Both the position numbers and the translations under genes were made by a program. A DNA stretch of 14,026 nt from Naegleria gruberi (Eukaryota), in assembly GCA_000004985.1 (NCBI GenBank), contig GG738984.1; one strand, given 5' to 3'. This document shows, in pieces, positions 1-14,026 of the stretch (its first letter is position 1; each line of letters begins with the position of its first letter). The notes below the pieces were generated by a model, which saw nothing but the letters and a program-made list of their open reading frames with translations, was not told the DNA's origin and searched no databases.

Positions 1-495
1 AAGACTCAAGTCCAACAATATGTTGACTTGGTTGCTAAGGGCCCATTCAGCCAATTGACTGATTTGGATTTGTACTTTGAAGCTAATCGTAGATATTACA
101 GATTCAACATCAAGTTGCCAATCGTTCCACACAAGTTTGTTGAACCATTGGTCATCCAAGGTGCTGAAAACTTCTTTAAACAATGGCACGCAATTGGAAA
201 GGAACAAGAAGTCCAAAAGATTTTCCCATGCACTCCTGTATATTCTGATGTAAATGCCTGTGCTAAGGTTTTGTCTGAAGGTTTCCGTTTGGCCATTTTG
301 ACTGGTATTGACAATCCAAGTAATATTGTTGCTGCTGGTTCTTTCTTCTATGATCCTGTTGGTAAGGTTAACGTTTTATTACGTCTTGAATACAATGCTC
401 CAAAGCAAGCTTACAGATTAACTGTCAAGGCTCAAGATGCCACTATTGCTCAACAAGTTTTCAATTACATCTTACAAGAACTCACCTCCCAATAA
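1..495 (+). CDS. 3' end of a gene entering from upstream of the window; the C-terminal about 164 aa. The tail resembles the C-terminal platform of an AP-complex beta subunit (beta-adaptin appendage). Product call is tentative.
   Basis: Frame 1 is open from base 1 to the TAA at 493-495. The M at 28 in the track is a TTG, so it is not a real start. Codon usage is strongly biased (gtt, gct, aag, cca, ttc, ttg, ggt, aga), as in highly expressed genes. The tail ...RLEYNAPKQAYRLTVKAQDATIAQQVFNYILQEL shows the same pattern as the beta2-adaptin C-terminus (..LSLKCRAPEVSQYIYQVYDSILKN), recalled from memory. The upstream FFKQWHAIGKEQEVQ is similar to the adaptin VFLATWKDIPNENELQ. AATAAA-like signals follow at 487-494. 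Confidence 0.75.
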   Translation, partial: KTQVQQYVDLVAKGPFSQLTDLDLYFEANRRYYRFNIKLPIVPHKFVEPLVIQGAENFFKQWHAIGKEQEVQKIFPCTPVYSDVNACAKVLSEGFRLAILTGIDNPSNIVAAGSFFYDPVGKVNVLLRLEYNAPKQAYRLTVKAQDATIAQQVFNYILQELTSQ

Positions 496-636: not shown

Positions 637-1005
637 TTACTCCAAAGTATTATTTGGAGATAGGTAGGCTTCTTGATTGATTGTCAAGGTAATATTATCA
701 TTGTTTCTTGTTGGTGTTTTGGGTTCATTCAATGTTTCAAGATTTGCAGAATTTTTCTTTTGTAAAATGTTTAAACTTGTTCTCAACATGTCAGTGAAGG
801 ATGGAACAAGAGCTGGAGTGTGATGTTTCTCATGCAACATGTAAGCAATACATTCACCTTTTCCTTTCACATTTAAATGTCTTTCTTCAAAAGTGAAACC
901 CAAATCATAAACTCTTTCATAGGTTGATCTGGAAATTTGAATTCTTCCTGGAATTGAATTAGATTCCATTCTTGAAGCTGTATTAATTGTATCTCCCCAT
1001 AAATC
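637..1005 (-). CDS. Terminal exon of a PAS-domain class III nucleotidyl cyclase. It covers the C-terminal half of the catalytic domain (DLWGDTINTASRMES...VKGKGECIAYML) plus an N/T-rich tail of about 65 aa. Stop codon is at 637-639.
   Basis: The reverse complement of 991-1005 reads GAT TTA TGG GGA GAT ..., giving D-L-W-G-D-T-I-N-T-A-S-R-M-E-S. This is the canonical class III cyclase motif with the transition-state Asn and Arg, and it is in frame with track ORF 637-969. A CAG acceptor (plus 1006-1008 revcomp) and polypyrimidine tract precede it. The downstream GKG..YML block is the usual end of the cyclase fold. Confidence 0.9.
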   Translation of the reverse strand, partial: DLWGDTINTASRMESNSIPGRIQISRSTYERVYDLGFTFEERHLNVKGKGECIAYMLHEKHHTPALVPSFTDMLRTSLNILQKKNSANLETLNEPKTPTRNNDNITLTINQEAYLSPNNTLE

Positions 1006-1112
1006 CTATTTAATTAATATTCAATTAATAATCAAATAATAATAAGTGAAAATGTACACAAATAATACACATTGCCATTGTTAAATTAAAAATGTTAAAA
1101 TTAAAAACATAC
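1006..1112 (-). other. Intron (107 nt) within the cyclase catalytic domain. Donor is GTATGT and acceptor is AATAG; it is phase 0.
   Basis: The upstream exon ends ...GVIGRKKFAY (TAT at 1113-1115) and is followed directly by GTATGT on the minus strand. Without splicing the read continues VCF then stop. Splicing to 1005 restores the conserved YDLWGDT motif. The intron is about 85% AT. Confidence 0.85.
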
Positions 1113-1975
1113 ATAGGCAAATTTCTTCCTCCCAATAACACCTGCAATAACACTTCCAGTATTAATACCAACACGAATATTAATTTGTTCAGATGGTTGT
1201 TTTCCTGATTTGGAATTAAATCTTTGTAAAACATCAAATGTATCAATGGAAAATCTCAAAATTCTTTCAGGATGATCTGATTGTGCATTTAATCCATGTA
1301 ATCCACCCACACAAAAATATGAATCTCCAATCGTTTTAATCTTTTCCAAATTATATTTGTCTGTCAAATCATCAAATCCAATTACAATTTCATTCAACAT
1401 TTGAACCAATTCAGATGCTTGAATTCCAGTACTTAATTTTGTAAATCCAACCATATCACTAAAAAAACATGAAACATCATTGAATTTCTCTGCAATATAA
1501 GTTTCTCCTGATTTCAATTTACTTGCTACTGCACTTGGTAAAATATTCAATAATAATTCTTCAGAATGTTTCTTTTCTTCTGTCAATAATGAATTATGTT
1601 TCTTCTCTGTTGTAATATCCTTAATGAAACAAGTGACAATACTTTGAGAATTGTGAAGAGTGGCAAAAATATTGACACGTGATGGGAAGCTTGTTTGATT
1701 CTTTCTGATACATTCCAATTCAATAGAATCTCCTTTCGAATCACCTCTTGCTGCATTCACTAACATTTCATCAATGAGGTTTTTAATTTTCGATTGCTCA
1801 TTCTTTTCAAATAATTGATACAATGATCTGCCAATCGTTTCTGTTTGATTATATCCAAATATCTTTTGAGCTGCTGGATTGAATATTTCAATATCAACCT
1901 TCTCTCCACTGCACATCACTGCTCCATCTACAGATGCGTTCAAAATGCTTCGAACTTTTGAGTCGCCCTCTGATG
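1113..1975 (-). CDS. Penultimate exon of the cyclase (partial; its 5' end runs into the gap). It holds a PAS domain (about 1615-1975), a guanylyl-cyclase-like linker (EELLLNILPSAVASKLKSGETY), and the first half of the cyclase domain (FFSDMVGFT...KIKTIGDSYFCVGGL..., about 1113-1484).
   Basis: The frame is open from 1113 through 1943 and on to the gap edge at 1975. The M at 1943 is a TTG. PAS signature: ..SILNASVDGAVMCSGEKVDIEIFNPAAQKIFGYNQTETIGRSLY. Both metal-binding Asp residues are present (FSDMVGF and TIGDSY). The substrate-specifying residue is Lys in KIKTIGD, which is the adenylyl-cyclase type. Confidence 0.9.
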
Positions 1976-4900
1976 NNNNNNNNNNNNNNNNNNNNNNNNN
2001 NNNNNNNNNNNNNNNNNNNNNNNNNNNNNNNNNNNNNNNNNNNNNNNNNNNNNNNNNNNNNNNNNNNNNNNNNNNNNNNNNNNNNNNNNNNNNNNNNNNN
2101 NNNNNNNNNNNNNNNNNNNNNNNNNNNNNNNNNNNNNNNNNNNNNNNNNNNNNNNNNNNNNNNNNNNNNNNNNNNNNNNNNNNNNNNNNNNNNNNNNNNN
2201 NNNNNNNNNNNNNNNNNNNNNNNNNNNNNNNNNNNNNNNNNNNNNNNNNNNNNNNNNNNNNNNNNNNNNNNNNNNNNNNNNNNNNNNNNNNNNNNNNNNN
2301 NNNNNNNNNNNNNNNNNNNNNNNNNNNNNNNNNNNNNNNNNNNNNNNNNNNNNNNNNNNNNNNNNNNNNNNNNNNNNNNNNNNNNNNNNNNNNNNNNNNN
2401 NNNNNNNNNNNNNNNNNNNNNNNNNNNNNNNNNNNNNNNNNNNNNNNNNNNNNNNNNNNNNNNNNNNNNNNNNNNNNNNNNNNNNNNNNNNNNNNNNNNN
2501 NNNNNNNNNNNNNNNNNNNNNNNNNNNNNNNNNNNNNNNNNNNNNNNNNNNNNNNNNNNNNNNNNNNNNNNNNNNNNNNNNNNNNNNNNNNNNNNNNNNN
2601 NNNNNNNNNNNNNNNNNNNNNNNNNNNNNNNNNNNNNNNNNNNNNNNNNNNNNNNNNNNNNNNNNNNNNNNNNNNNNNNNNNNNNNNNNNNNNNNNNNNN
2701 NNNNNNNNNNNNNNNNNNNNNNNNNNNNNNNNNNNNNNNNNNNNNNNNNNNNNNNNNNNNNNNNNNNNNNNNNNNNNNNNNNNNNNNNNNNNNNNNNNNN
2801 NNNNNNNNNNNNNNNNNNNNNNNNNNNNNNNNNNNNNNNNNNNNNNNNNNNNNNNNNNNNNNNNNNNNNNNNNNNNNNNNNNNNNNNNNNNNNNNNNNNN
2901 NNNNNNNNNNNNNNNNNNNNNNNNNNNNNNNNNNNNNNNNNNNNNNNNNNNNNNNNNNNNNNNNNNNNNNNNNNNNNNNNNNNNNNNNNNNNNNNNNNNN
3001 NNNNNNNNNNNNNNNNNNNNNNNNNNNNNNNNNNNNNNNNNNNNNNNNNNNNNNNNNNNNNNNNNNNNNNNNNNNNNNNNNNNNNNNNNNNNNNNNNNNN
3101 NNNNNNNNNNNNNNNNNNNNNNNNNNNNNNNNNNNNNNNNNNNNNNNNNNNNNNNNNNNNNNNNNNNNNNNNNNNNNNNNNNNNNNNNNNNNNNNNNNNN
3201 NNNNNNNNNNNNNNNNNNNNNNNNNNNNNNNNNNNNNNNNNNNNNNNNNNNNNNNNNNNNNNNNNNNNNNNNNNNNNNNNNNNNNNNNNNNNNNNNNNNN
3301 NNNNNNNNNNNNNNNNNNNNNNNNNNNNNNNNNNNNNNNNNNNNNNNNNNNNNNNNNNNNNNNNNNNNNNNNNNNNNNNNNNNNNNNNNNNNNNNNNNNN
3401 NNNNNNNNNNNNNNNNNNNNNNNNNNNNNNNNNNNNNNNNNNNNNNNNNNNNNNNNNNNNNNNNNNNNNNNNNNNNNNNNNNNNNNNNNNNNNNNNNNNN
3501 NNNNNNNNNNNNNNNNNNNNNNNNNNNNNNNNNNNNNNNNNNNNNNNNNNNNNNNNNNNNNNNNNNNNNNNNNNNNNNNNNNNNNNNNNNNNNNNNNNNN
3601 NNNNNNNNNNNNNNNNNNNNNNNNNNNNNNNNNNNNNNNNNNNNNNNNNNNNNNNNNNNNNNNNNNNNNNNNNNNNNNNNNNNNNNNNNNNNNNNNNNNN
3701 NNNNNNNNNNNNNNNNNNNNNNNNNNNNNNNNNNNNNNNNNNNNNNNNNNNNNNNNNNNNNNNNNNNNNNNNNNNNNNNNNNNNNNNNNNNNNNNNNNNN
3801 NNNNNNNNNNNNNNNNNNNNNNNNNNNNNNNNNNNNNNNNNNNNNNNNNNNNNNNNNNNNNNNNNNNNNNNNNNNNNNNNNNNNNNNNNNNNNNNNNNNN
3901 NNNNNNNNNNNNNNNNNNNNNNNNNNNNNNNNNNNNNNNNNNNNNNNNNNNNNNNNNNNNNNNNNNNNNNNNNNNNNNNNNNNNNNNNNNNNNNNNNNNN
4001 NNNNNNNNNNNNNNNNNNNNNNNNNNNNNNNNNNNNNNNNNNNNNNNNNNNNNNNNNNNNNNNNNNNNNNNNNNNNNNNNNNNNNNNNNNNNNNNNNNNN
4101 NNNNNNNNNNNNNNNNNNNNNNNNNNNNNNNNNNNNNNNNNNNNNNNNNNNNNNNNNNNNNNNNNNNNNNNNNNNNNNNNNNNNNNNNNNNNNNNNNNNN
4201 NNNNNNNNNNNNNNNNNNNNNNNNNNNNNNNNNNNNNNNNNNNNNNNNNNNNNNNNNNNNNNNNNNNNNNNNNNNNNNNNNNNNNNNNNNNNNNNNNNNN
4301 NNNNNNNNNNNNNNNNNNNNNNNNNNNNNNNNNNNNNNNNNNNNNNNNNNNNNNNNNNNNNNNNNNNNNNNNNNNNNNNNNNNNNNNNNNNNNNNNNNNN
4401 NNNNNNNNNNNNNNNNNNNNNNNNNNNNNNNNNNNNNNNNNNNNNNNNNNNNNNNNNNNNNNNNNNNNNNNNNNNNNNNNNNNNNNNNNNNNNNNNNNNN
4501 NNNNNNNNNNNNNNNNNNNNNNNNNNNNNNNNNNNNNNNNNNNNNNNNNNNNNNNNNNNNNNNNNNNNNNNNNNNNNNNNNNNNNNNNNNNNNNNNNNNN
4601 NNNNNNNNNNNNNNNNNNNNNNNNNNNNNNNNNNNNNNNNNNNNNNNNNNNNNNNNNNNNNNNNNNNNNNNNNNNNNNNNNNNNNNNNNNNNNNNNNNNN
4701 NNNNNNNNNNNNNNNNNNNNNNNNNNNNNNNNNNNNNNNNNNNNNNNNNNNNNNNNNNNNNNNNNNNNNNNNNNNNNNNNNNNNNNNNNNNNNNNNNNNN
4801 NNNNNNNNNNNNNNNNNNNNNNNNNNNNNNNNNNNNNNNNNNNNNNNNNNNNNNNNNNNNNNNNNNNNNNNNNNNNNNNNNNNNNNNNNNNNNNNNNNNN

Positions 4901-6426
4901 NNNNNNNNNNNNNNNNNNNNNNNNNNNNNNNNNNNNNNNNNNNNNNNNNNNNNNNNNNNNNNNNNNNNNNNNNNNNNNNNNNNNNNNNNNNNNNNNNNNN
5001 NNNNNNNNNNNNNNNNNNNNNNNNNNNNNNNNNNNNNNNNNNNNNNNNNNNNNNNNNNNNNNNNNNNNNNNNNNNNNNNNNNNNNNNNNNNNNNNNNNNN
5101 NNNNNNNNNNNNNNNNNNNNNNNNNNNNNNNNNNNNNNNNNNNNNNNNNNNNNNNNNNNNNNNNNNNNNNNNNNNNNNNNNNNNNNNNNNNNNNNNNNNN
5201 NNNNNNNNNNNNNNNNNNNNNNNNNNNNNNNNNNNNNNNNNNNNNNNNNNNNNNNNNNNNNNNNNNNNNNNNNNNNNNNNNNNNNNNNNNNNNNNNNNNN
5301 NNNNNNNNNNNNNNNNNNNNNNNNNNNNNNNNNNNNNNNNNNNNNNNNNNNNNNNNNNNNNNNNNNNNNNNNNNNNNNNNNNNNNNNNNNNNNNNNNNNN
5401 NNNNNNNNNNNNNNNNNNNNNNNNNNNNNNNNNNNNNNNNNNNNNNNNNNNNNNNNNNNNNNNNNNNNNNNNNNNNNNNNNNNNNNNNNNNNNNNNNNNN
5501 NNNNNNNNNNNNNNNNNNNNNNNNNNNNNNNNNNNNNNNNNNNNNNNNNNNNNNNNNNNNNNNNNNNNNNNNNNNNNNNNNNNNNNNNNNNNNNNNNNNN
5601 NNNNNNNNNNNNNNNNNNNNNNNNNNNNNNNNNNNNNNNNNNNNNNNNNNNNNNNNNNNNNNNNNNNNNNNNNNNNNNNNNNNNNNNNNNNNNNNNNNNN
5701 NNNNNNNNNNNNNNNNNNNNNNNNNNNNNNNNNNNNNNNNNNNNNNNNNNNNNNNNNNNNNNNNNNNNNNNNNNNNNNNNNNNNNNNNNNNNNNNNNNNN
5801 NNNNNNNNNNNNNNNNNNNNNNNNNNNNNNNNNNNNNNNNNNNNNNNNNNNNNNNNNNNNNNNNNNNNNNNNNNNNNNNNNNNNNNNNNNNNNNNNNNNN
5901 NNNNNNNNNNNNNNNNNNNNNNNNNNNNNNNNNNNNNNNNNNNNNNNNNNNNNNNNNNNNNNNNNNNNNNNNNNNNNNNNNNNNNNNNNNNNNNNNNNNN
6001 NNNNNNNNNNNNNNNNNNNNNNNNNNNNNNNNNNNNNNNNNNNNNNNNNNNNNNNNNNNNNNNNNNNNNNNNNNNNNNNNNNNNNNNNNNNNNNNNNNNN
6101 NNNNNNNNNNNNNNNNNNNNNNNNNNNNNNNNNNNNNNNNNNNNNNNNNNNNNNNNNNNNNNNNNNNNNNNNNNNNNNNNNNNNNNNNNNNNNNNNNNNN
6201 NNNNNNNNNNNNNNNNNNNNNNNNNNNNNNNNNNNNNNNNNNNNNNNNNNNNNNNNNNNNNNNNNNNNNNNNNNNNNNNNNNNNNNNNNNNNNNNNNNNN
6301 NNNNNNNNNNNNNNNNNNNNNNNNNNNNNNNNNNNNNNNNNNNNNNNNNNNNNNNNNNNNNNNNNNNNNNNNNNNNNNNNNNNNNNNNNNNNNNNNNNNN
6401 NNNNNNNNNNNNNNNNNNNNNNNNNN
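1976..6426. other. Assembly gap (4451 N)
   Basis: A run of N. Track ORFs 1879-6438, 1894-6441, 1934-6430 and 1940-6523 are open only because N translates to X. Confidence 1.
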
Positions 6427-6429
6427 GTG

Positions 6430-6523
6430 AAGTACTAGCAATAGAGATTGAATCCTCTTCTATGGCAATATTGTTGTTGTTAGTATTATTCAATTGATTT
6501 ATGCTAGCATTGGGATGCAACAT
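6430..6523 (-). CDS. Candidate first coding segment, possibly the N-terminus of the same cyclase gene, continuing into the gap: MLHPNASINQLNNTNNNNIAIEEDSISIASTS..
   Basis: ATG on the minus strand at 6521-6523 is preceded by AAAAAAAC, an A-rich start context typical of AT-rich amoebae. Poly-N low complexity follows. It has the same orientation as the cyclase, and the frame is open to the gap edge. Linkage across the gap cannot be shown from this sequence. Confidence 0.35.
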
Positions 6524-7029: not shown

Positions 7030-7200
7030 GCCAAGTACGATTTTTTGGTTTTTTTTACGTTATTCCCGCTAAACCCTTTTCGCAAATGCTGGCTTGACTT
7101 TTAACGATTTTTTGTTAATGGATTTTTGCGATGTGAGCGAAATGTAGAATTGCCCAAGCTCGACTTGTAAATTTTTTCGAAACTATTTGAAATTTCACCA
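7030..7200. other. Non-coding segment with an atypical CpG-containing composition. It has internal direct repeats: CGATTTTTTG twice, GCTTGACTT and GCTCGACTTG, and CCAAG twice.
   Basis: Nine or more CG dinucleotides occur in about 170 nt, although CG is otherwise rare here. The motifs acgattttttgg (7038-7049) and acgattttttgtt (7104-7116) repeat. Several T6-8 runs are flanked by CG. No ORF is present. Confidence 0.4.
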
Positions 7201-7223: not shown

Positions 7224-7555
7224 TATTAAATGTATTGATTGTTGTAATGAACTGGAATAGGCCTGTTTGGAAGGGTCAAGAATAACACACGGAACCTTTT
7301 TCCTTGATATCTCAATGATACGTTTCGGATCTTCAATAGCAAGCTGTATTGAATAAAAGTCATTAGAAAAGGACTCAACCTGACAAACCTTCTTGGTTTT
7401 TGTATCAAAGCATCTCGTTTCTTACTCACTACATAGTTGCCAGCAATACATTGTCCTGAGTTTAAGGGTTCATTCAGATCAAGAAGATCACATAATTGAC
7501 ACCTATCATAATACGTAATGGATTCTATTGAACTTGTTCTGCAGGTGTTAAAGGA
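7224..7555 (-). CDS. Possible 3'-terminal two-exon fragment of an unknown minus-strand gene: exon 7430-7555 (..CRTSSIESITYYDRCQLCDLLDLNEPLNSGQCIAGNYV), intron 7344-7429 (GTGAGT..CAG, 86 nt), exon 7224-7343 (LAIEDPKRIIEISRKKVPCVILDPSKQAYSSSLQQSIHLI), with TAG at 7221-7223.
   Basis: Two open frames of about 40 codons each are phase-compatible across a canonical GTGAGT donor and a CAG acceptor. The intron is of typical size, and the exons are richer in GC than the surrounding DNA. No family was recognised. The 5' part would lie in gap 2. Confidence 0.3.
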
Positions 7556-9481: not shown

Positions 9482-9590
9482 TTGTATGATGCAAAAGTTT
9501 ACATCAAGAAATTGTTGAAAATCTACCTTCTTTTTTGTCTGATCCCTTTCTGGTAGTGTCATTAATTAATATGCTTGGTTGTTCAATCAG

Positions 9591-10553
9591 TCCCAGGCAG
9601 TATTGGATGTTTTTGGTGGGTACAATGGACAAGATGTGGCCGTGTTAAATGTTACATTGTCAGCTCTTTACAAGGATGGTTTAATTCATAATGCTCTCAA
9701 TCTATTCTATGAAAATACGAAAAATTACAAGTTTGATGAAAAAACATTTACAATTATTTTAACAATGTGCAAAGACATGCAAAACGACGATAGTGTAAAG
9801 GGTCAACAATATTTTGAAATGATGAAACAATATGAAGTTGAACCAAATATCTTCCATTATACATGTCTTATCAAGTGTTTTCTCTCAGAAAAGCAATTTG
9901 AAAGGGCTCTGGATATTCTCTTTGATATTCATTTGACAGGAATTCTAATTGATGATGCTTGCTTTAACTCTTCCGGGGGGTCTCTTTAAATCATGATCAT
10001 TATGAAAATTACAATGGAATTGCATCAAATAATCATCACGATGAAGGAAACTTTTCATTCTTCTTTTATTGATTTCTGTGCCCAGTACAGTATGAGAGAA
10101 TTGGCTGGTAGAGTTCACATATAATGAAAGATTTTGGACATAAACCAAATATACAACTCTTCAATATGCTAAATATGTACTTGAATGTTGGAAATTTTGA
10201 AAAAGCTCTAGAACTGTATAAAGAATTAAGAAATCAAGCCAATATTATCACTTGCAACATTCTCATATCTGGATTAACTTTGAATGGGCAGGGTAAAGAA
10301 GCTATTAGGATATTCAAAGAAATGAATATAGCCCCTAATGGCACCACATTTGCTGCAGTGTTGAATGCATGTAGTCATTGTGGATTAATTAAGGAAGGAT
10401 TTCAAATCTATGAAAGTATGCAAACAAATCATGGTATTGAACCAGATGGTCGGACTTTTAATGTTTGACAACCAACCTACATTAAAAGTTATTGTAACCT
10501 TACAAAAAAACTATTATTGGAGAGATGGTGAACTTTGCTATTGTGGTAATTTC
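9591..10553 (+). pseudogene. PLS-class pentatricopeptide repeat (PPR) gene ending in a DYW-like C-terminal block. The reading frame is broken three times, so it is a candidate pseudogene unless the breaks are sequence errors. Its 5' end lies in gap 2.
   Basis: Segment A, 9591-9986 (frame 0), carries P/L-type repeats and ends at a TAA (9987-9989) where the S-motif needs a hydrophobic residue. Segment B, 10014-10121 (same frame), reads MELHQIIITMKETFHSSFIDFCAQYSMRELAGRVHI and ends at TAA 10122-10124. Segment C, 10124-10465 (frame +2), matches the plant S2/E1 consensus almost exactly: ..NIITCNILISGLTLNGQGKEAIRIFKEMNIAPNGTTFAAVLNACSHCGLIKEGFQIYESMQTNHGIEPDGRTF. After another frame change, 10470-10553 reads TLKVIVTLQKNYYWRDGELCYCGNF. 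This aligns with the DYW-domain terminus [25 protein letters not shown]. There is no in-frame ATG. A possible acceptor is caatcag|TCC at 9588-9591. Confidence 0.5.
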
Positions 10554-10643: not shown

Positions 10644-11016
10644 ATGTGTACTAATAATAATAATAATAATACTCTCACTGGTAAATTAATCATGAGAAAG
10701 AACAAGGAAGAAAGTATTGAAAAGGTTTTCCAATTAATTAATTTCGGAGGCTTGAATGAATCTGTTAGAGAATTTGTTCAAGATTTGTCATCTGCTACTT
10801 CTTCTGATGAAGTGTTATTATCCACTTTCAAGATCAAGGCTATTGTTCCATCTTCTGAGAAGAGAAAAACAATTTATATAATTAATAATGAAAATGATTT
10901 TTCTGAAATGATGAAATTAATTCAAGAAATTCCACAAGATAAACCAATTCTTTTCAGAGTAATGAAGAAGAAATTGAATCATGAAAAGAAGGAAAGAAAG
11001 GAAAAGAAAGAAAGAA
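10644..11016 (+). CDS. Hypothetical protein, N-terminal part, running into gap 3: (MCTNNNNNNTLTGKLI)MRKNKEESIEKVFQLINFGGLNESVREFVQDLSSATSSDEVLLSTFKIKAIVPSSEKRKTIYIINNENDFSEMMKLIQEIPQDKPILFRVMKKKLNHEKKERKEKKER..
   Basis: The frame is open for more than 200 codons (10410-11016) in AT-rich DNA. In-frame ATGs sit at 10644 (aaaATG context) and 10692. Coding triplet texture is present and there is no stop before the gap. The frame is also open upstream into the PPR DYW-like block, so this could be a C-terminal extension of the PPR gene rather than a separate gene. No family was recognised. Confidence 0.4.
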
Positions 11017-12192: not shown

Positions 12193-12312
12193 GGCTACGG
12201 CCATATCACGATGAATGCACCTCATCCCGTCCGATTTGAGAAGTTAAGCATCGTAGAGCCACATCAGTACTGAGGTTGGAGACAACTTGGGAACCTGTGG
12301 TGCTGTAGTCTT
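12193..12312 (+). rRNA. 5S ribosomal RNA gene
   Basis: GGCUACGGCCAUAUCACGAUGAAUGCACCUCAUCCCGUCCGAUUUGAGAAGUUAAGCAUCGUAGAGCC...GUACUGAGGUUGGAGACAACUUGGGAACCUGUGGUGCUGUAGUC matches universal 5S blocks (GGCCAUA.., CCCGUCCGAU, GAAGUUAAGC, GUACU, GGGAA, GGUGCUGUA). The 5' GGCUACGGC pairs with the 3' GCUGUAGUC to form a 9-bp helix I with two G-U pairs. Length is about 120 nt. An oligo-T follows immediately. Confidence 0.9.
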
Positions 12313-12630: not shown

Positions 12631-13561
12631 ATGAGAAAAAGAGAAGCATTGATGGACGAGTTTTCCGATCCATCACCAAAGAAATTATTGGATGATGATG
12701 ACGAGGAAACTTCTGATTTTATTGAACATAAGAAATCGACCAAGAAGAAGAGTAGTAGCAAGACAAAGAATCAACATAATAGAACATTCTCATCATCGAG
12801 TACGGGGAGTACAGGGAGTGGTGGTGGCGGAAATGTAACTTTTGGATATGGAAAAAAGCAACAACACACAAGAACACAATCATCAACATCGAGTACAGGT
12901 TCTCCTGTTGGAGGAGGTTATCAATCATCGGGTATATATGATGGTGATTCCTCTCCTGTTGTTACATCAGATAATTATGATAATAATCGATTGAATTACT
13001 CTGCATCGAATAGTAATATTGATAAATACAAGGGAATAAGTTCAAGAGATATGGGAAAGGTTAATAGTATGCCATCAATTTCGGAATCATATGAAAATTC
13101 ATCATCATCATCATACTCTAATGATCCACGTATTGGTACCATGAAGAATAATTATTATGAACAGGCAAGAAAGAGACAAAACGAAGAGAGTGGTCCATAC
13201 ATTTTGCAAGTTATTGCCGATATGTTAAAGTATATTTATTCATCAATTACAGAAACTGCCAATATTGGAGGATCTAGATTGACAAGTGCCGTCTCGGGAA
13301 TGAATTTCAGACAGAATCAATCCAATGCAAATCCAAGAGCAGGAGGTGATTTCCCATCTCCAGAGATTTATTTAGAACCTGAAAAGAAGCAAATTTTGGA
13401 ACAATTCAAAAAGTATTGCTCTAAAAAGTTCGACATTGAGAATGACAAACATCAAAAACTGTTATTCTCACTCTACAAGTGTTGTACTCAGAAGAAGACT
13501 ATTTTAACTGAGGGAGAACATTGGAAATTCTTGGGATTCCAAAACACAAAACCAGAAACTG
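12631..13561 (+). CDS. ELMO-domain protein, exon 1. The N-terminal about 230 aa are S/G/N/T-rich low complexity; the start of the ELMO domain follows (..EHWKFLGFQNTKPET).
   Basis: ATG at 12631 is the first in-frame ATG after a TAA at 12601-12603, in an aacATG context. The frame is open to 13561 and the exon ends in a GTAAGT donor. The apparent stop of track ORF 12631-13569 (TAA at 13567-13569) is part of that donor. Confidence 0.85.
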
Positions 13562-13653
13562 GTAAGTAATCACTATTGTTTTATTAATAATGTTTCATAA
13601 CTTTACTTGTTCAATTTCATCAATAATTGGATCGGAATAATTATTAATAACAG
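13562..13653 (+). other. Intron (92 nt, GTAAGT..AACAG, phase 1) splitting the ELMO-domain T-D-F-R-G motif
   Basis: Exon 1 ends ..ACT G. After the acceptor CAG (13651-13653), exon 2 starts AC TTT AGA GGA GCA GGT. The spliced read is ..KPETDFRGAGILGLRNLLYF, matching the ELMO consensus W..LGFQ...P.TDFRG.G.LGL..L.YF. Confidence 0.85.
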
Positions 13654-14026
13654 ACTTTAGAGGAGCAGGTATTCTTGGGTTGAGAAATTTACTCTACTTC
13701 TCCAAACATTACAAGAAGAGATTCAAGAATTACTTTGGAAAATGTACAAATGAGATTTCTGTCACTGATGATGGTACTTTCACAAGTTATCCATTTGTTA
13801 TTGCTGGGTTGAATGTGACAATGTTGCTCTTGTCCTTCCTAGGTATTGGATTCCAAGCATCTAAGGTACATAATGTGACGGCCAAGAAGAATTTCATTGA
13901 ACTTTTAACATCCGAAAGAGGAAAACCAGTTCTTGAAGAGGATGAAGACGAAGAGGAGGATGAAGATTCTACACCTGTAGTTACAGAAGGAACACTGCTT
14001 TCCTTTGATGACATTCCAGAACAAAA
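13654..14026 (+). CDS. ELMO-domain protein, exon 2 (partial, continues past the window end): DFRGAGILGLRNLLYFSKHYKKRFKNYFGKCTNEISVTDDGTFTSYPFVIAGLNVTMLLLSFLGIGFQASKVHNVTAKKNFIELLTSERGKPVLEEDEDEEEDEDSTPVVTEGTLLSFDDIPEQ
   Basis: No stop codon from 13654 to 14026 in the spliced frame. Carries ELMO-domain hallmarks. The antisense track ORF 13787-14014 is rejected. Confidence 0.85.

What the first reader, a model, noticed from the sequence alone, without database searches (positions are those of the whole stretch)
637..1975. PAS-domain class III cyclase with adenylyl-cyclase specificity residues, in a gene that may span more than 5.8 kb
The visible two exons encode a PAS domain fused through a GC-type linker (LLLNILPSAVASKLKSGETY) to a complete homodimer-type catalytic domain. 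Both metal-binding Asp residues, the Asn/Arg pair and a GKG..YML end are present. The two positions that discriminate ATP from GTP are Lys (KIKTIGD) and Asp (Y|DLWGD), which is the adenylyl-cyclase combination even though the linker looks guanylyl-cyclase-like. The classically described nucleotidyl cyclases of social amoebae (12-TM, CHASE-sensor and response-regulator types) lack a PAS domain next to the catalytic domain. A PAS-gated soluble AC would therefore be a candidate new ligand- or redox-sensing cAMP source if the host is a dictyostelid. If the host is a heterolobosean, it belongs to a known expanded family. About 4.5 kb of the gene is hidden in the gap, so more sensor domains are likely.
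Basis: partly seen in the sequence, partly recalled or inferred. Interest (0 to 1): 0.6.

Follow-up and report, generated by a model that had tools for sequence, protein, structure and literature searches.

The report
Naegleria membrane PAS adenylyl cyclase fragment
This is the 3' end of an already catalogued Naegleria gruberi gene for a PAS-domain adenylyl cyclase, one of that amoeba's large cyclase family, and its relatives suggest that the part lost in the assembly gap is a long multi-pass membrane region rather than nothing.

Summary
On the minus strand, two exons (1113-1975 and 637-1005) are joined across a 107-nt GT..AG intron. They encode a PAS domain, a cyclase-transducer helix and a complete class III catalytic domain. 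Pfam gives PAS_9 at 2e-15 and Guanylate_cyc at 2e-54. Both metal Asp, the Lys/Asp ATP-specifying pair, Asn, Arg and the KGKG Lys are present.

The window is a whole 14,026-bp Naegleria gruberi scaffold. The gene is NAEGRDRAFT_54669 (EFC35924.1, 'predicted protein'), whose public model is cut short by the gap.

The 'GC-type' linker is the transducer element that adenylyl and guanylyl cyclases share.

The long-gene idea is supported indirectly. The PAS-cyclase part sits in a clade (82% bootstrap) whose complete members are 1,400-1,813 aa. They have about 8 TM, a TPR_TmcB region, two TM-loop-TM modules, then PAS and cyclase. That length fits the 4.45-kb gap. The enzyme is therefore probably membrane-bound, not soluble.

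The gap could not be closed. The PAS ligand is unknown; the FixL heme His and the LOV Cys are both absent.

The parts
637..1005 (-). Last exon. It carries the C-terminal half of the catalytic domain (DLWGDTINTASRMES...VKGKGECIAYML), a 63-aa low-complexity tail and the TAA stop at 637-639.
   Evidence: Translation; Pfam Guanylate_cyc covers it; specificity Asp, Asn, Arg and KGKG Lys are conserved.
1006..1112 (-). Intron of 107 nt, GTATGT...TAG, phase 0, lying between FAY and DLWGD.
   Evidence: Sequence. The unspliced frame stops. The junction is contiguous in all homologues. There is an intron at the identical position in relative L002, at 4150-4205.
1113..1975 (-). Exon that is open to the gap edge. 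It encodes the PAS domain, a linker helix, the cyclase transducer element (LLLNILPSAVASKLK) and the N-terminal half of the catalytic domain (FFSDMVGFT, EKIKTIGD).
   Evidence: Translation; Pfam PAS_9/PAS/Guanylate_cyc; AlphaFold model of P0001 with pLDDT 88.8, showing a PAS fold, helix 102-125, helix 128-135, then the cyclase fold.
1976..6426 (.). Assembly gap of 4,451 N. It is inferred to hold the 5' part of the gene, by analogy with relatives: about 8 TM, TPR_TmcB, then two TM-loop-TM modules.
   Evidence: N run. The JGI model P0001 starts at an internal Met just after the gap. Relatives are 1,400-1,813 aa. Length fit. The content is inferred, not seen.
6427..6523 (-). Candidate first coding segment (MLHPNASINQLNNTNNNNIAIEEDSISIASTS) that runs into the gap. 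It is polar and N/S-rich, like the cytosolic N-termini of long-form relatives. Its assignment to this gene is unproven.
   Evidence: ORF. A-rich context before the ATG and AT-rich, ORF-free DNA upstream. Composition resembles the N-termini. The HMM test was not significant (E=6, rank 14 of 207). No Pfam match.

Best explanation
Window 637-1975 (minus strand) is the 3' third of Naegleria gruberi gene NAEGRDRAFT_54669.

Shown:
- It encodes a PAS domain, a linker helix, the cyclase transducer element and a single class IIIa-type catalytic domain.
- That domain carries every residue that mammalian cyclases divide between C1 and C2.

Inferred from family knowledge:
- The enzyme must act as a head-to-tail homodimer with two symmetric active sites.
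- With Lys/Asp at the base-recognition positions, it should make cAMP from ATP.

Inferred from relatives:
- The missing 5' part encodes a large polytopic membrane region. It would have a polar cytosolic tail, about 8 TM helices, a cytosolic TPR_TmcB region, and two modules of TM, a helical extracytoplasmic loop of about 190 aa, and TM.
- The last TM would lead through a conserved juxtamembrane segment into the PAS domain.

Proposed mechanism (inferred):
- A signal is sensed by the membrane or loop region, or by the PAS pocket.
- It changes the PAS dimer and the register of the linker/transducer helices.
- That aligns or misaligns the two catalytic halves, as in soluble guanylyl cyclase and Rv1625c-type cyclases.

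The PAS ligand is unknown. It is not a FixL-type heme PAS and not a LOV domain.
For: - Identity and host: 100% match to EFC35924.1 / D2W4S9 on a 14,026-bp contig.
- Domains: Pfam.
- Catalytic and specificity residues. The Lys/Asp = AC and Glu/Cys = GC rule is in PMC7384201.
- Closest solved sequences: mammalian AC8/9/5 C2 and mycobacterial Cya/Rv1625c, all class IIIa.
- Foldseek: best hits are a bacterial adenylyl cyclase soluble domain (5o5k/5o5l), GC-A and RhGC, with M. tuberculosis Cya/Rv1625c (7yzk) also listed. sGC chains align over 306-368 columns, that is PAS, coiled coil and catalytic domain together.
- Model: PAS fold, long helix, short 'handle' helix, catalytic fold, at pLDDT 88.8.
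- Long-form inference: relative L002 carries an uninterrupted ORF of more than 1,100 codons that ends in the first half of its PAS domain. N. lovaniensis and N. fowleri proteins of 1,813, 1,808 and 1,477(+333) aa have TPR_TmcB + PAS_9 + Guanylate_cyc.
- phmmer of the N-terminal 1,000 aa finds 103 representatives, mostly 1,400-1,740 aa. Every named one is from Naegleria or Willaertia. Of the 32 scanned, 30 have TPR_TmcB, 28 have PAS_9 and 24 have the cyclase domain.
- Bootstrap NJ tree: the window groups with L003 and N. lovaniensis C9374_013611 (1,595 aa) at 82%. It lies inside the long-form clade, also at 82%.
- The upstream ORF of L003, one of the window's two closest relatives, aligns to TM11-loop-TM12-PAS of P0121 (E 3e-45).
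- Length fit: the transducer motif starts at median residue 1,454 in 21 long forms. The window offers about 1,660 codon-equivalents between that codon and the ATG at 6523.
- The intron position is shared with L002.
Against: - The N-terminal part is not visible, and no orthologue closer than about 66% identity was found.
- The 32-aa ORF at the far edge of the gap shows no significant similarity to long-form N-termini.
- The gap length is an assembler's estimate.
- The tree is a distance tree on 350 columns with moderate support.
- Shorter relatives exist: Acrasis kona proteins of 374 and 644 aa, the 644-aa one from an intronless gene, and N. gruberi P0008, which starts MGGSLASK about 35 aa before its PAS.
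- TM counts come from a simple hydropathy scan.
- No enzymology exists for any PAS member of this family in the literature I could search.
Confidence: 0.7

Rival explanations
1. It is a short, soluble or only peripherally attached PAS-adenylyl cyclase of about 430-650 aa. Its start codon lies a few hundred bases inside the gap. The ORF at 6427-6523 belongs to a different gene, and the rest of the gap holds another gene or a repeat.
For: - Shorter relatives exist: Acrasis kona AKO1_007975 (374 aa) and the 644-aa Acrasis adenylate cyclase encoded by an intronless 1,935-bp gene.
- N. gruberi P0008 begins MGGSLASK about 35 aa before its PAS domain.
- The far-edge ORF has no significant similarity to long-form N-termini.
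- By my own recollection of the genome paper, N. gruberi is gene-dense, so 4.45 kb could hold more than one gene.
Against: - The window protein does not cluster with the Acrasis-type short forms. It clusters with long forms (82% bootstrap).
- PAS identity is 40-52% to L002, L003, P0002 and P0121-P0123 (40-44% to the three complete long forms), against 26-31% to P0008 and the Acrasis proteins.
- Several 'short' Naegleria models are truncated or split. P0002 aligns to the last loop of long forms. P0123 and P0124 are one gene split into two models. P0009 shares a cluster with a 1,267-aa protein.
- L003, one of the two closest relatives, has at least 330 aa of TM-loop-TM upstream of its PAS domain.
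Confidence: 0.2
2. It is a dead or artefactual copy: a gene fragment on a small, gap-ridden scaffold (a collapsed repeat or haplotig) that is not expressed as a functional cyclase.
For: - The 14-kb scaffold has three gaps covering 52% of its length.
- The neighbouring PPR reading frame is broken by stops.
- No second copy of the protein exists in any public assembly searched (cluster of one).
Against: - The frame is open for 409 codons with a clean GT..AG intron.
- All eight catalytic residues and the transducer motif are intact.
- The nearest N. gruberi paralogue is only 52-58% identical, so this is not a haplotig of a known gene.
Confidence: 0.07
3. It is a guanylyl or dual-specificity cyclase, as the reader's 'GC-like linker' might suggest.
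For: GC-A, RhGC and sGC are among the good sequence and structure matches. Substrate choice in class III cyclases is not determined by two residues alone (discussion in PMC7384201).
Against: - Lys and Asp occupy the two base-recognition positions. Among the 36 aligned relatives, Lys is in all 36 and Asp in all 33 that cover that column. In the long-form set, the Lys (EKIKTIGD) and Asp (F-x-[YF]-D) motifs were found in most sequences, and no Glu or Cys variant was seen.
- The best sequence matches are adenylyl cyclases.
- The linker motif is equally present in AC8 and AC9.
Confidence: 0.05

Closest known systems
Heterolobosean long-form PAS-cyclases, uncharacterised (for example N. lovaniensis C9374_011659 at 1,813 aa, N. 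fowleri FDP41_003313 at 1,808 aa, N. gruberi NAEGRDRAFT_72081 at 1,736 aa)
   Same: - The PAS-transducer-catalytic region is 58-66% identical.
- The KVRxxLNAxVDG lead-in to the PAS domain is the same.
- All have the Lys/Asp pair.
- The intron position is shared with L002.
- The window falls in the same clade.
   Different: The window shows only the last ~410 aa. The 12-TM/TPR_TmcB part is inferred, not seen. No member has been studied experimentally.
Mycobacterial Cya / Rv1625c (class IIIa; 6 TM + helical domain + one catalytic domain; homodimer)
   Same: A single catalytic domain with all catalytic residues, a Lys/Asp pair and a transducer helix directly before the catalytic domain. It is among the best sequence and structure matches.
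   Different: Rv1625c has no PAS domain and only 6 TM. The Naegleria relatives have about 12 TM, TPR_TmcB and a PAS domain.
Mammalian membrane adenylyl cyclases AC1-9 and Dictyostelium ACA (12 TM, class IIIa)
   Same: These are the best PDB sequence matches, with C2 domains at E 1e-57 to 5e-66. They share the linker motif and a membrane-embedded design with about 12 TM.
   Different: They have two different catalytic domains in one chain (6TM-C1-6TM-C2), with catalytic residues split between them. They have no PAS domain and are regulated by G proteins.
Soluble guanylyl cyclase (H-NOX-PAS-coiled coil-catalytic)
   Same: The order PAS, helical linker, catalytic domain is the same, and structures align over 306-368 columns. 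The PAS domain has no cofactor and serves dimerisation and signal transmission. This is a plausible model for how the domain works here.
   Different: sGC is a heterodimer with Glu/Cys (GTP) specificity. It has a heme H-NOX sensor and is soluble.
Bacterial (mostly cyanobacterial) PAS- and receiver-domain adenylyl cyclases
   Same: PAS_9 + Guanylate_cyc architecture, at 39-54% identity to the query by BLASTP local alignment.
   Different: They form a separate clade (100% bootstrap split) and lack the heterolobosean N-terminal membrane module.
NgPAC1-4, BLUF photoactivated adenylyl cyclases of N. gruberi
   Same: Same organism, and class III adenylyl cyclases with an N-terminal sensor. They are the only Naegleria cyclases with experimental data that turned up in my literature searches (PMC5608697).
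   Different: They have BLUF flavin sensors and are soluble and short. The present protein has a PAS domain without flavin or heme signature residues.

Membership tests
Class III nucleotidyl cyclase (Pfam PF00211) | Full-length match to the catalytic-domain profile above the gathering score | tested here: met
   184.1 bits against a cutoff of 21.9, profile positions 3-182 of 183.
Class III nucleotidyl cyclase, catalytically competent homodimer type | Two metal-binding Asp, transition-state Asn and Arg, and phosphate-binding Arg and Lys, all in one domain | tested here: met
   D154, D198, N276, R280, R248, K317 (P0001 numbering). They align to the AC8/AC9 C1 and C2 residues. Dimerisation itself was not tested.
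Adenylyl (not guanylyl) cyclase | Lys and Asp (or Thr) at the two base-recognition positions; Glu and Cys/Ser in GCs | tested here: met
   K194 (EKIKTIGD) and D269 (YDLWG). The rule is quoted in PMC7384201.
Adenylyl (not guanylyl) cyclase | Measured preference for ATP | not testable with these tools
   Needs an enzyme assay.
Class IIIa subclass (Linder and Schultz classification, from my own knowledge) | Asp (not Thr) as the second specificity residue, the cyclase transducer element before the domain, and closest similarity to tmAC, GC and Rv1625c | tested here: met
   D269. The LLLNILPSAVASKLK motif aligns to the AC8/AC9 linkers. The top PDB matches are tmAC C2 and mycobacterial Cya. Other subclass markers, such as arm length, were not examined.
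PAS domain | Profile match above the gathering score, and a PAS fold | tested here: met
   PAS_9 57.3 bits (cutoff 27) and PAS 34.9 bits (cutoff 22.6). The predicted model has a helix-rich N-terminal segment (helices 14-56), then three beta strands (63-100) and a C-terminal helix, at pLDDT >90. The model (P0001) lacks the N-terminal strands because the public gene model starts inside the PAS domain.
Heme-binding PAS (FixL/DosP type) | Proximal His on the F-alpha helix (PMC10468136) | tested here: not met
   FixL is the best PDB match for the PAS part (E 3e-7). Its His200 (RSRHDSY) aligns to Ile in SKIKNL. That column holds His in only 1 of 36 relatives.
LOV (FMN) PAS | Photoactive Cys in the GRNCRFLQ motif | tested here: not met
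   The corresponding segment is GRSLYQLF, with Leu at the Cys position.
Heterolobosean long-form membrane PAS-cyclase (about 8 TM, TPR_TmcB, two TM-loop-TM modules, PAS, cyclase) | The PAS-cyclase region falls in the long-form clade | tested here: met
   82% bootstrap for the clade and 82% for window + L003 + C9374_013611. This is a distance tree only.
Heterolobosean long-form membrane PAS-cyclase (about 8 TM, TPR_TmcB, two TM-loop-TM modules, PAS, cyclase) | Presence of the N-terminal polytopic region with TPR_TmcB (PF25474) | not testable with these tools
   That part would lie in the N run 1976-6426. The length fit is compatible. The far-edge ORF gave an inconclusive result.

The most novel reading that the evidence does not exclude
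The window gene may be a full-length member of a heterolobosean-restricted class of receptor-like adenylyl cyclases that nobody has studied. These would be roughly 1,800-aa proteins in which a 12-TM body signals through a cofactor-less PAS domain and the transducer helix to a homodimeric class IIIa catalytic domain. The body comprises about 8 TM of unknown function, a cytosolic TPR_TmcB region and two extracytoplasmic helical loops. That design differs from the 6+6 TM two-domain cyclases of animals and Dictyostelium, and from trypanosome receptor cyclases. Naegleria has expanded it to dozens of paralogues, possibly one per environmental ligand.
Probability: 0.3. Interest if true: 0.5.

Novelty: new member of a known kind. 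Interest (0 to 1): 0.3.

Why it matters
For this locus the result is mostly tidy-up.

- The gene is already in GenBank and UniProt as a truncated 'predicted protein'.
- It belongs to the cyclase expansion noted for Naegleria. The pangenome paper PMC9928731 reports at least 81 cyclases. From memory, the 2010 genome paper reported about 108.

The useful points are three:

- The public model NAEGRDRAFT_54669 is cut inside its PAS domain by an assembly gap. Several other short Naegleria cyclase models are also truncated or split versions of genes encoding 1,400-1,800 aa.
- The 'soluble PAS-gated AC' reading is probably wrong. Relatives are polytopic membrane proteins.
- The family's N-terminal module was found only in Heterolobosea at phmmer sensitivity. 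It has no known function and no experimental literature that I could find.

This module may be worth study as a candidate environmental-sensing receptor family, including in the pathogen N. fowleri.

Tried and rejected
1. My first reading was that only about 200-300 aa were missing and that the 5.8-kb idea was unfounded. It rested on the 527-644-aa relatives. I dropped it after the contigs behind the closest metagenomic relatives showed long upstream ORFs in the same gene. Complete 1,477-1,813-aa Naegleria proteins then turned up.
2. Exact look-ups of P0001 and P0002 for genomic context returned nothing on record.
3. A word-indexed search with the 8-TM/TPR region of P0121 returned only one protein, P0124, and missed obvious homologues. 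Its only use was to show that P0123 and P0124 are one split gene. The exhaustive phmmer search replaced it.
4. An HMM of three long-form N-termini against all six-frame fragments of the window did not pick out the 6427-6523 ORF (E=6).
5. A scan of JGI metagenome contigs for an orthologue to bridge the gap found only bacterial cyclases at 48% identity or less.
6. A test for internal duplication between the two TM-loop-TM modules of P0121 gave no significant similarity (z=0.8).
7. The second AlphaFold model (P0002) shows a helical last loop, but at only moderate confidence (pLDDT 75.5, pTM 0.44). I did not run a fold search on it.
8. Literature searches for TmcB returned nothing relevant. The 2010 Naegleria genome paper is not held in the library.
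9. Pfam scans of other small ORFs (7229-7555, 10644-11015, 7072-7182, 6428-6523) found no families.
Full report
**What is in the sequence**

On the minus strand, 1113-1973 is open from the edge of the N run and reads SEGDSKVRSILNASVDG...GRKKFAY. On the same strand, 637-1005 reads DLWGDTINTASRMES...NNTLE followed by a stop at 637-639.

Between them lies a 107-nt intron, 1006-1112. It starts GTATGT, ends TAG and is in phase 0.
- Left unspliced, the frame ends after FAYVCF.
- Spliced, it recreates the KFAYDLWGDT block, which is uninterrupted and nearly invariant in all relatives.

Pfam on the spliced 409 residues gives Guanylate_cyc at 2.4e-54 over almost the whole profile, PAS_9 at 2.1e-15 and PAS at 1.7e-8.

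**Whose gene it is**

The protein search returned a 100% identical 390-aa 'predicted protein [Naegleria gruberi]' on a contig of exactly 14,026 bases. The window is therefore a complete small scaffold of the N. gruberi assembly.

The accessions are EFC35924.1 / XP_002668668.1 / UniProt D2W4S9, locus NAEGRDRAFT_54669. That public model starts at an internal Met (MCSGEK...) inside the PAS domain, directly after the gap. Two things follow:
- The N run was a real assembly gap at annotation time.
- The deposited protein is truncated.

The other readable pieces of the scaffold are ordinary eukaryotic genes and a 5S rRNA gene.

**Catalytic chemistry**

The alignment to mammalian AC8 and AC9 places residues as follows:
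- FFSD and TIGD fall on the two C1 metal-binding Asp residues.
- EKIKTIGD, YDLWG, TINTASRM and VKGKG fall on the C2 Lys, Asp, Asn, Arg and Lys.

All eight positions are conserved in 36 relatives.

One domain that carries both the C1 and the C2 residue sets is the homodimeric arrangement with two active sites. This rests on established knowledge of class III cyclases; dimerisation was not tested here. Lys and Asp at the base-recognition positions specify ATP, whereas guanylyl cyclases have Glu and Cys/Ser there (PMC7384201).

The closest solved sequences are tmAC C2 domains and mycobacterial Cya/Rv1625c, which is class IIIa. Foldseek with a confident model (pLDDT 88.8) agrees.

**The 'GC-like' linker**

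The segment LLLNILPSAVASKLKSGETY aligns to the linkers before C2 in AC8 (MLRNILPSHVARHFL) and AC9 (LLRNIIPYHVAEQLKVSQTY). It is the short 'handle' helix, or cyclase transducer element, described for class III cyclases generally (PMC7384201). There is no conflict between the linker and the AC residues.

**The PAS domain**

Its best solved relative is the heme domain of FixL (E 3e-7). However, the proximal His of FixL aligns to Ile, and relatives do not conserve a His there. His on F-alpha is the main determinant of heme binding in that PAS cluster (PMC10468136). The LOV Cys position is Leu.

The ligand or cofactor is therefore unknown. Soluble guanylyl cyclase chains align to the model over 306-368 columns, covering PAS, coiled coil and catalytic domain in the same order. 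That makes sGC, whose PAS domain is a cofactor-free transmission module, a reasonable working analogue.

**How long is the gene?**

At first the longest complete-looking relatives were 527-644 aa, which suggested that only about 0.7-1 kb was missing. This turned out to be an artefact of fragmentary gene models.

*The closest metagenomic relatives*
- The contig behind relative P0007 (L002) carries an uninterrupted 1,126-codon ORF that runs off the contig start. It ends with ...VRNILNASVEGCLLCNHNYEIEIYNPAAQR, which is the first half of that gene's own PAS domain.
- After removing a 46-nt and a 56-nt intron, the L002 protein is at least 1,502 aa. Its second intron sits at exactly the FAY|DLWGD position of the window intron.
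- Pfam finds TPR_TmcB (PF25474) in the L002 upstream ORF.

*Complete Naegleria proteins*
- Searching with that ORF found N. lovaniensis C9374_011659 (1,813 aa), N. fowleri FDP41_003313 (1,808 aa) and FDP41_010089 (1,477 aa). All three have TPR_TmcB + PAS_9 + Guanylate_cyc.
- The N-terminus of FDP41_010089 is the adjacent model FDP41_010088.
- A hydropathy scan of the 1,813-aa protein gives about 8 TM between residues 90 and 390. Then come TM at about 800, 1,015, 1,083 and 1,290, separated by two loops of about 190 aa. Each loop has Cys residues and N-x-S/T sites. The PAS domain begins at 1,365.

*Size of the family*
- An exhaustive phmmer search with the N-terminal 1,000 residues of FDP41_010089 found 103 representatives, 28 of them below 1e-30 and most 1,400-1,740 aa long.
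- Every one that carries a name is from N. gruberi, N. fowleri, N. lovaniensis or Willaertia magna.
- Of the 32 scanned, 30 have TPR_TmcB, 28 have PAS_9 and 24 have the cyclase domain.

**Does the window gene belong to these long forms?**

- In the PAS-to-catalytic region it is 66% identical to L003, 62% to L002, 58-59% to the 1,477-1,813-aa proteins and 58% to P0002. It is only 44% identical to the Acrasis proteins.
- In a bootstrapped distance tree, the window groups with L003 and N. lovaniensis C9374_013611 (1,595 aa) at 82%. The clade of Naegleria-type long forms is recovered at 82%. The bacterial PAS-cyclases are separated at 100%.
- L003's upstream ORF runs off its contig. It aligns colinearly to TM11-loop-TM12-PAS of the 1,813-aa protein (E 3e-45).
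- The transducer motif starts at median residue 1,454 in 21 long forms. In the window there are about 1,660 codon-equivalents between that codon (1544) and the ATG at 6523. That leaves roughly 0.6 kb for introns and gap-size error.

*What remains unproven*
- The 32-residue ORF at 6427-6523 is polar and N/S-rich, like long-form N-termini. It shows no significant similarity to them and has no Pfam match.
- No closer orthologue or alternative assembly could be found.

I put about 0.7 on the long membrane form and about 0.2 on a shorter gene with something else in the gap.

**Mechanism**

*Shown:* the domain order PAS, helix, transducer element and catalytic domain, and a full catalytic residue set with the ATP-type pair.

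*Inferred from family knowledge:* a head-to-tail homodimer that makes cAMP.

*Inferred from relatives:*
- The enzyme is anchored by about 12 TM.
- The last TM feeds a conserved juxtamembrane segment (LR.MLNY...E.LRN[YF]) and then the PAS domain.
- Signals from the membrane or loop region, or from a PAS ligand, would be passed through the helical linker to the catalytic dimer.

What the 8-TM and TPR_TmcB parts do is unknown.

**Comparison with known systems and novelty**

The protein works like a class IIIa homodimeric membrane cyclase of the Rv1625c type. It has an sGC-like PAS-helix-catalytic output. It belongs to the heterolobosean cyclase expansion. PMC9928731 reports at least 81 cyclases in the genus; the 2010 genome paper reported about 108, which I cite from memory because the paper is not held.

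The only Naegleria cyclases with experimental data that turned up in my literature searches are the BLUF-type NgPACs (PMC5608697).

The locus itself is a new (in fact already deposited) member of a known kind. The long-form architecture is visible in the databases but, as far as my searches show, undescribed in the literature. That is the only part with some discovery value.

**Verdict**

- Observation: confirmed.
- Interpretation: partly supported. The PAS-AC assignment, the intron, the heterolobosean family and the probable great length hold up. The 'soluble', 'GC-type linker' and dictyostelid-novelty points do not.
- Interest: 0.3.

Noticed in passing
window 12193-12311 (+): A complete 5S rRNA gene (Rfam RF00001, 106.5 bits, model 1-120). 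It stands alone between an assembly gap and the ELMO-domain gene.
   Followed up: no
window 9579-10468 (+): Two adjacent pentatricopeptide-repeat ORFs (PPR_2 at 6e-10 and 3e-20) are separated by stops or frame changes around 9990-10120. This could be an unrecognised intron, sequencing errors in a low-coverage contig, or a decaying gene.
   Followed up: no
window 1-495 (+) and 12631-14026 (+): Flanking genes. The first is the C-terminal appendage of an alpha-adaptin (Alpha_adaptin_C, 2e-21). It converges on the cyclase with only 141 nt between the two stop codons. The second is an ELMO/CED-12 domain gene (1e-29) that runs off the scaffold end, with a probable short intron near 13562-13655. I guessed that splice by eye.
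   Followed up: partly
public gene models P0001, P0002, P0009, P0123/P0124: Several short Naegleria cyclase models are truncated or split versions of much longer genes.
- P0001 starts inside its PAS domain.
- P0002 (606 aa) starts inside the last extracytoplasmic loop.
- FDP41_010088 and FDP41_010089 are two halves of one gene.
- P0009 (365 aa) shares a cluster with a 1,267-aa protein.
Counts of 'soluble' cyclases taken from these proteomes would be inflated.
   Followed up: partly
L002 1-4801 and L003 1-2207 (ENA ERZ929261, PRJEB11402 metagenome): These metagenome contigs carry Naegleria-like long-form cyclase genes with very short introns (46, 56 and 76 nt). A prokaryote-style gene caller had split them into separate proteins.
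   Followed up: yes
P0121 residues ~90-1310 and homologues: The N-terminal module (about 8 TM, TPR_TmcB, then two TM-loop-TM units) was found only in Heterolobosea among named hits. It has no Pfam family other than TPR_TmcB. The two loop modules show no detectable similarity to each other.
   Followed up: partly
window 10644-11016 (+): An ORF begins MCTNNNNNNTLTGK... and ends in a Lys/Glu-rich stretch that runs into the third gap. It has no Pfam match.
   Followed up: partly
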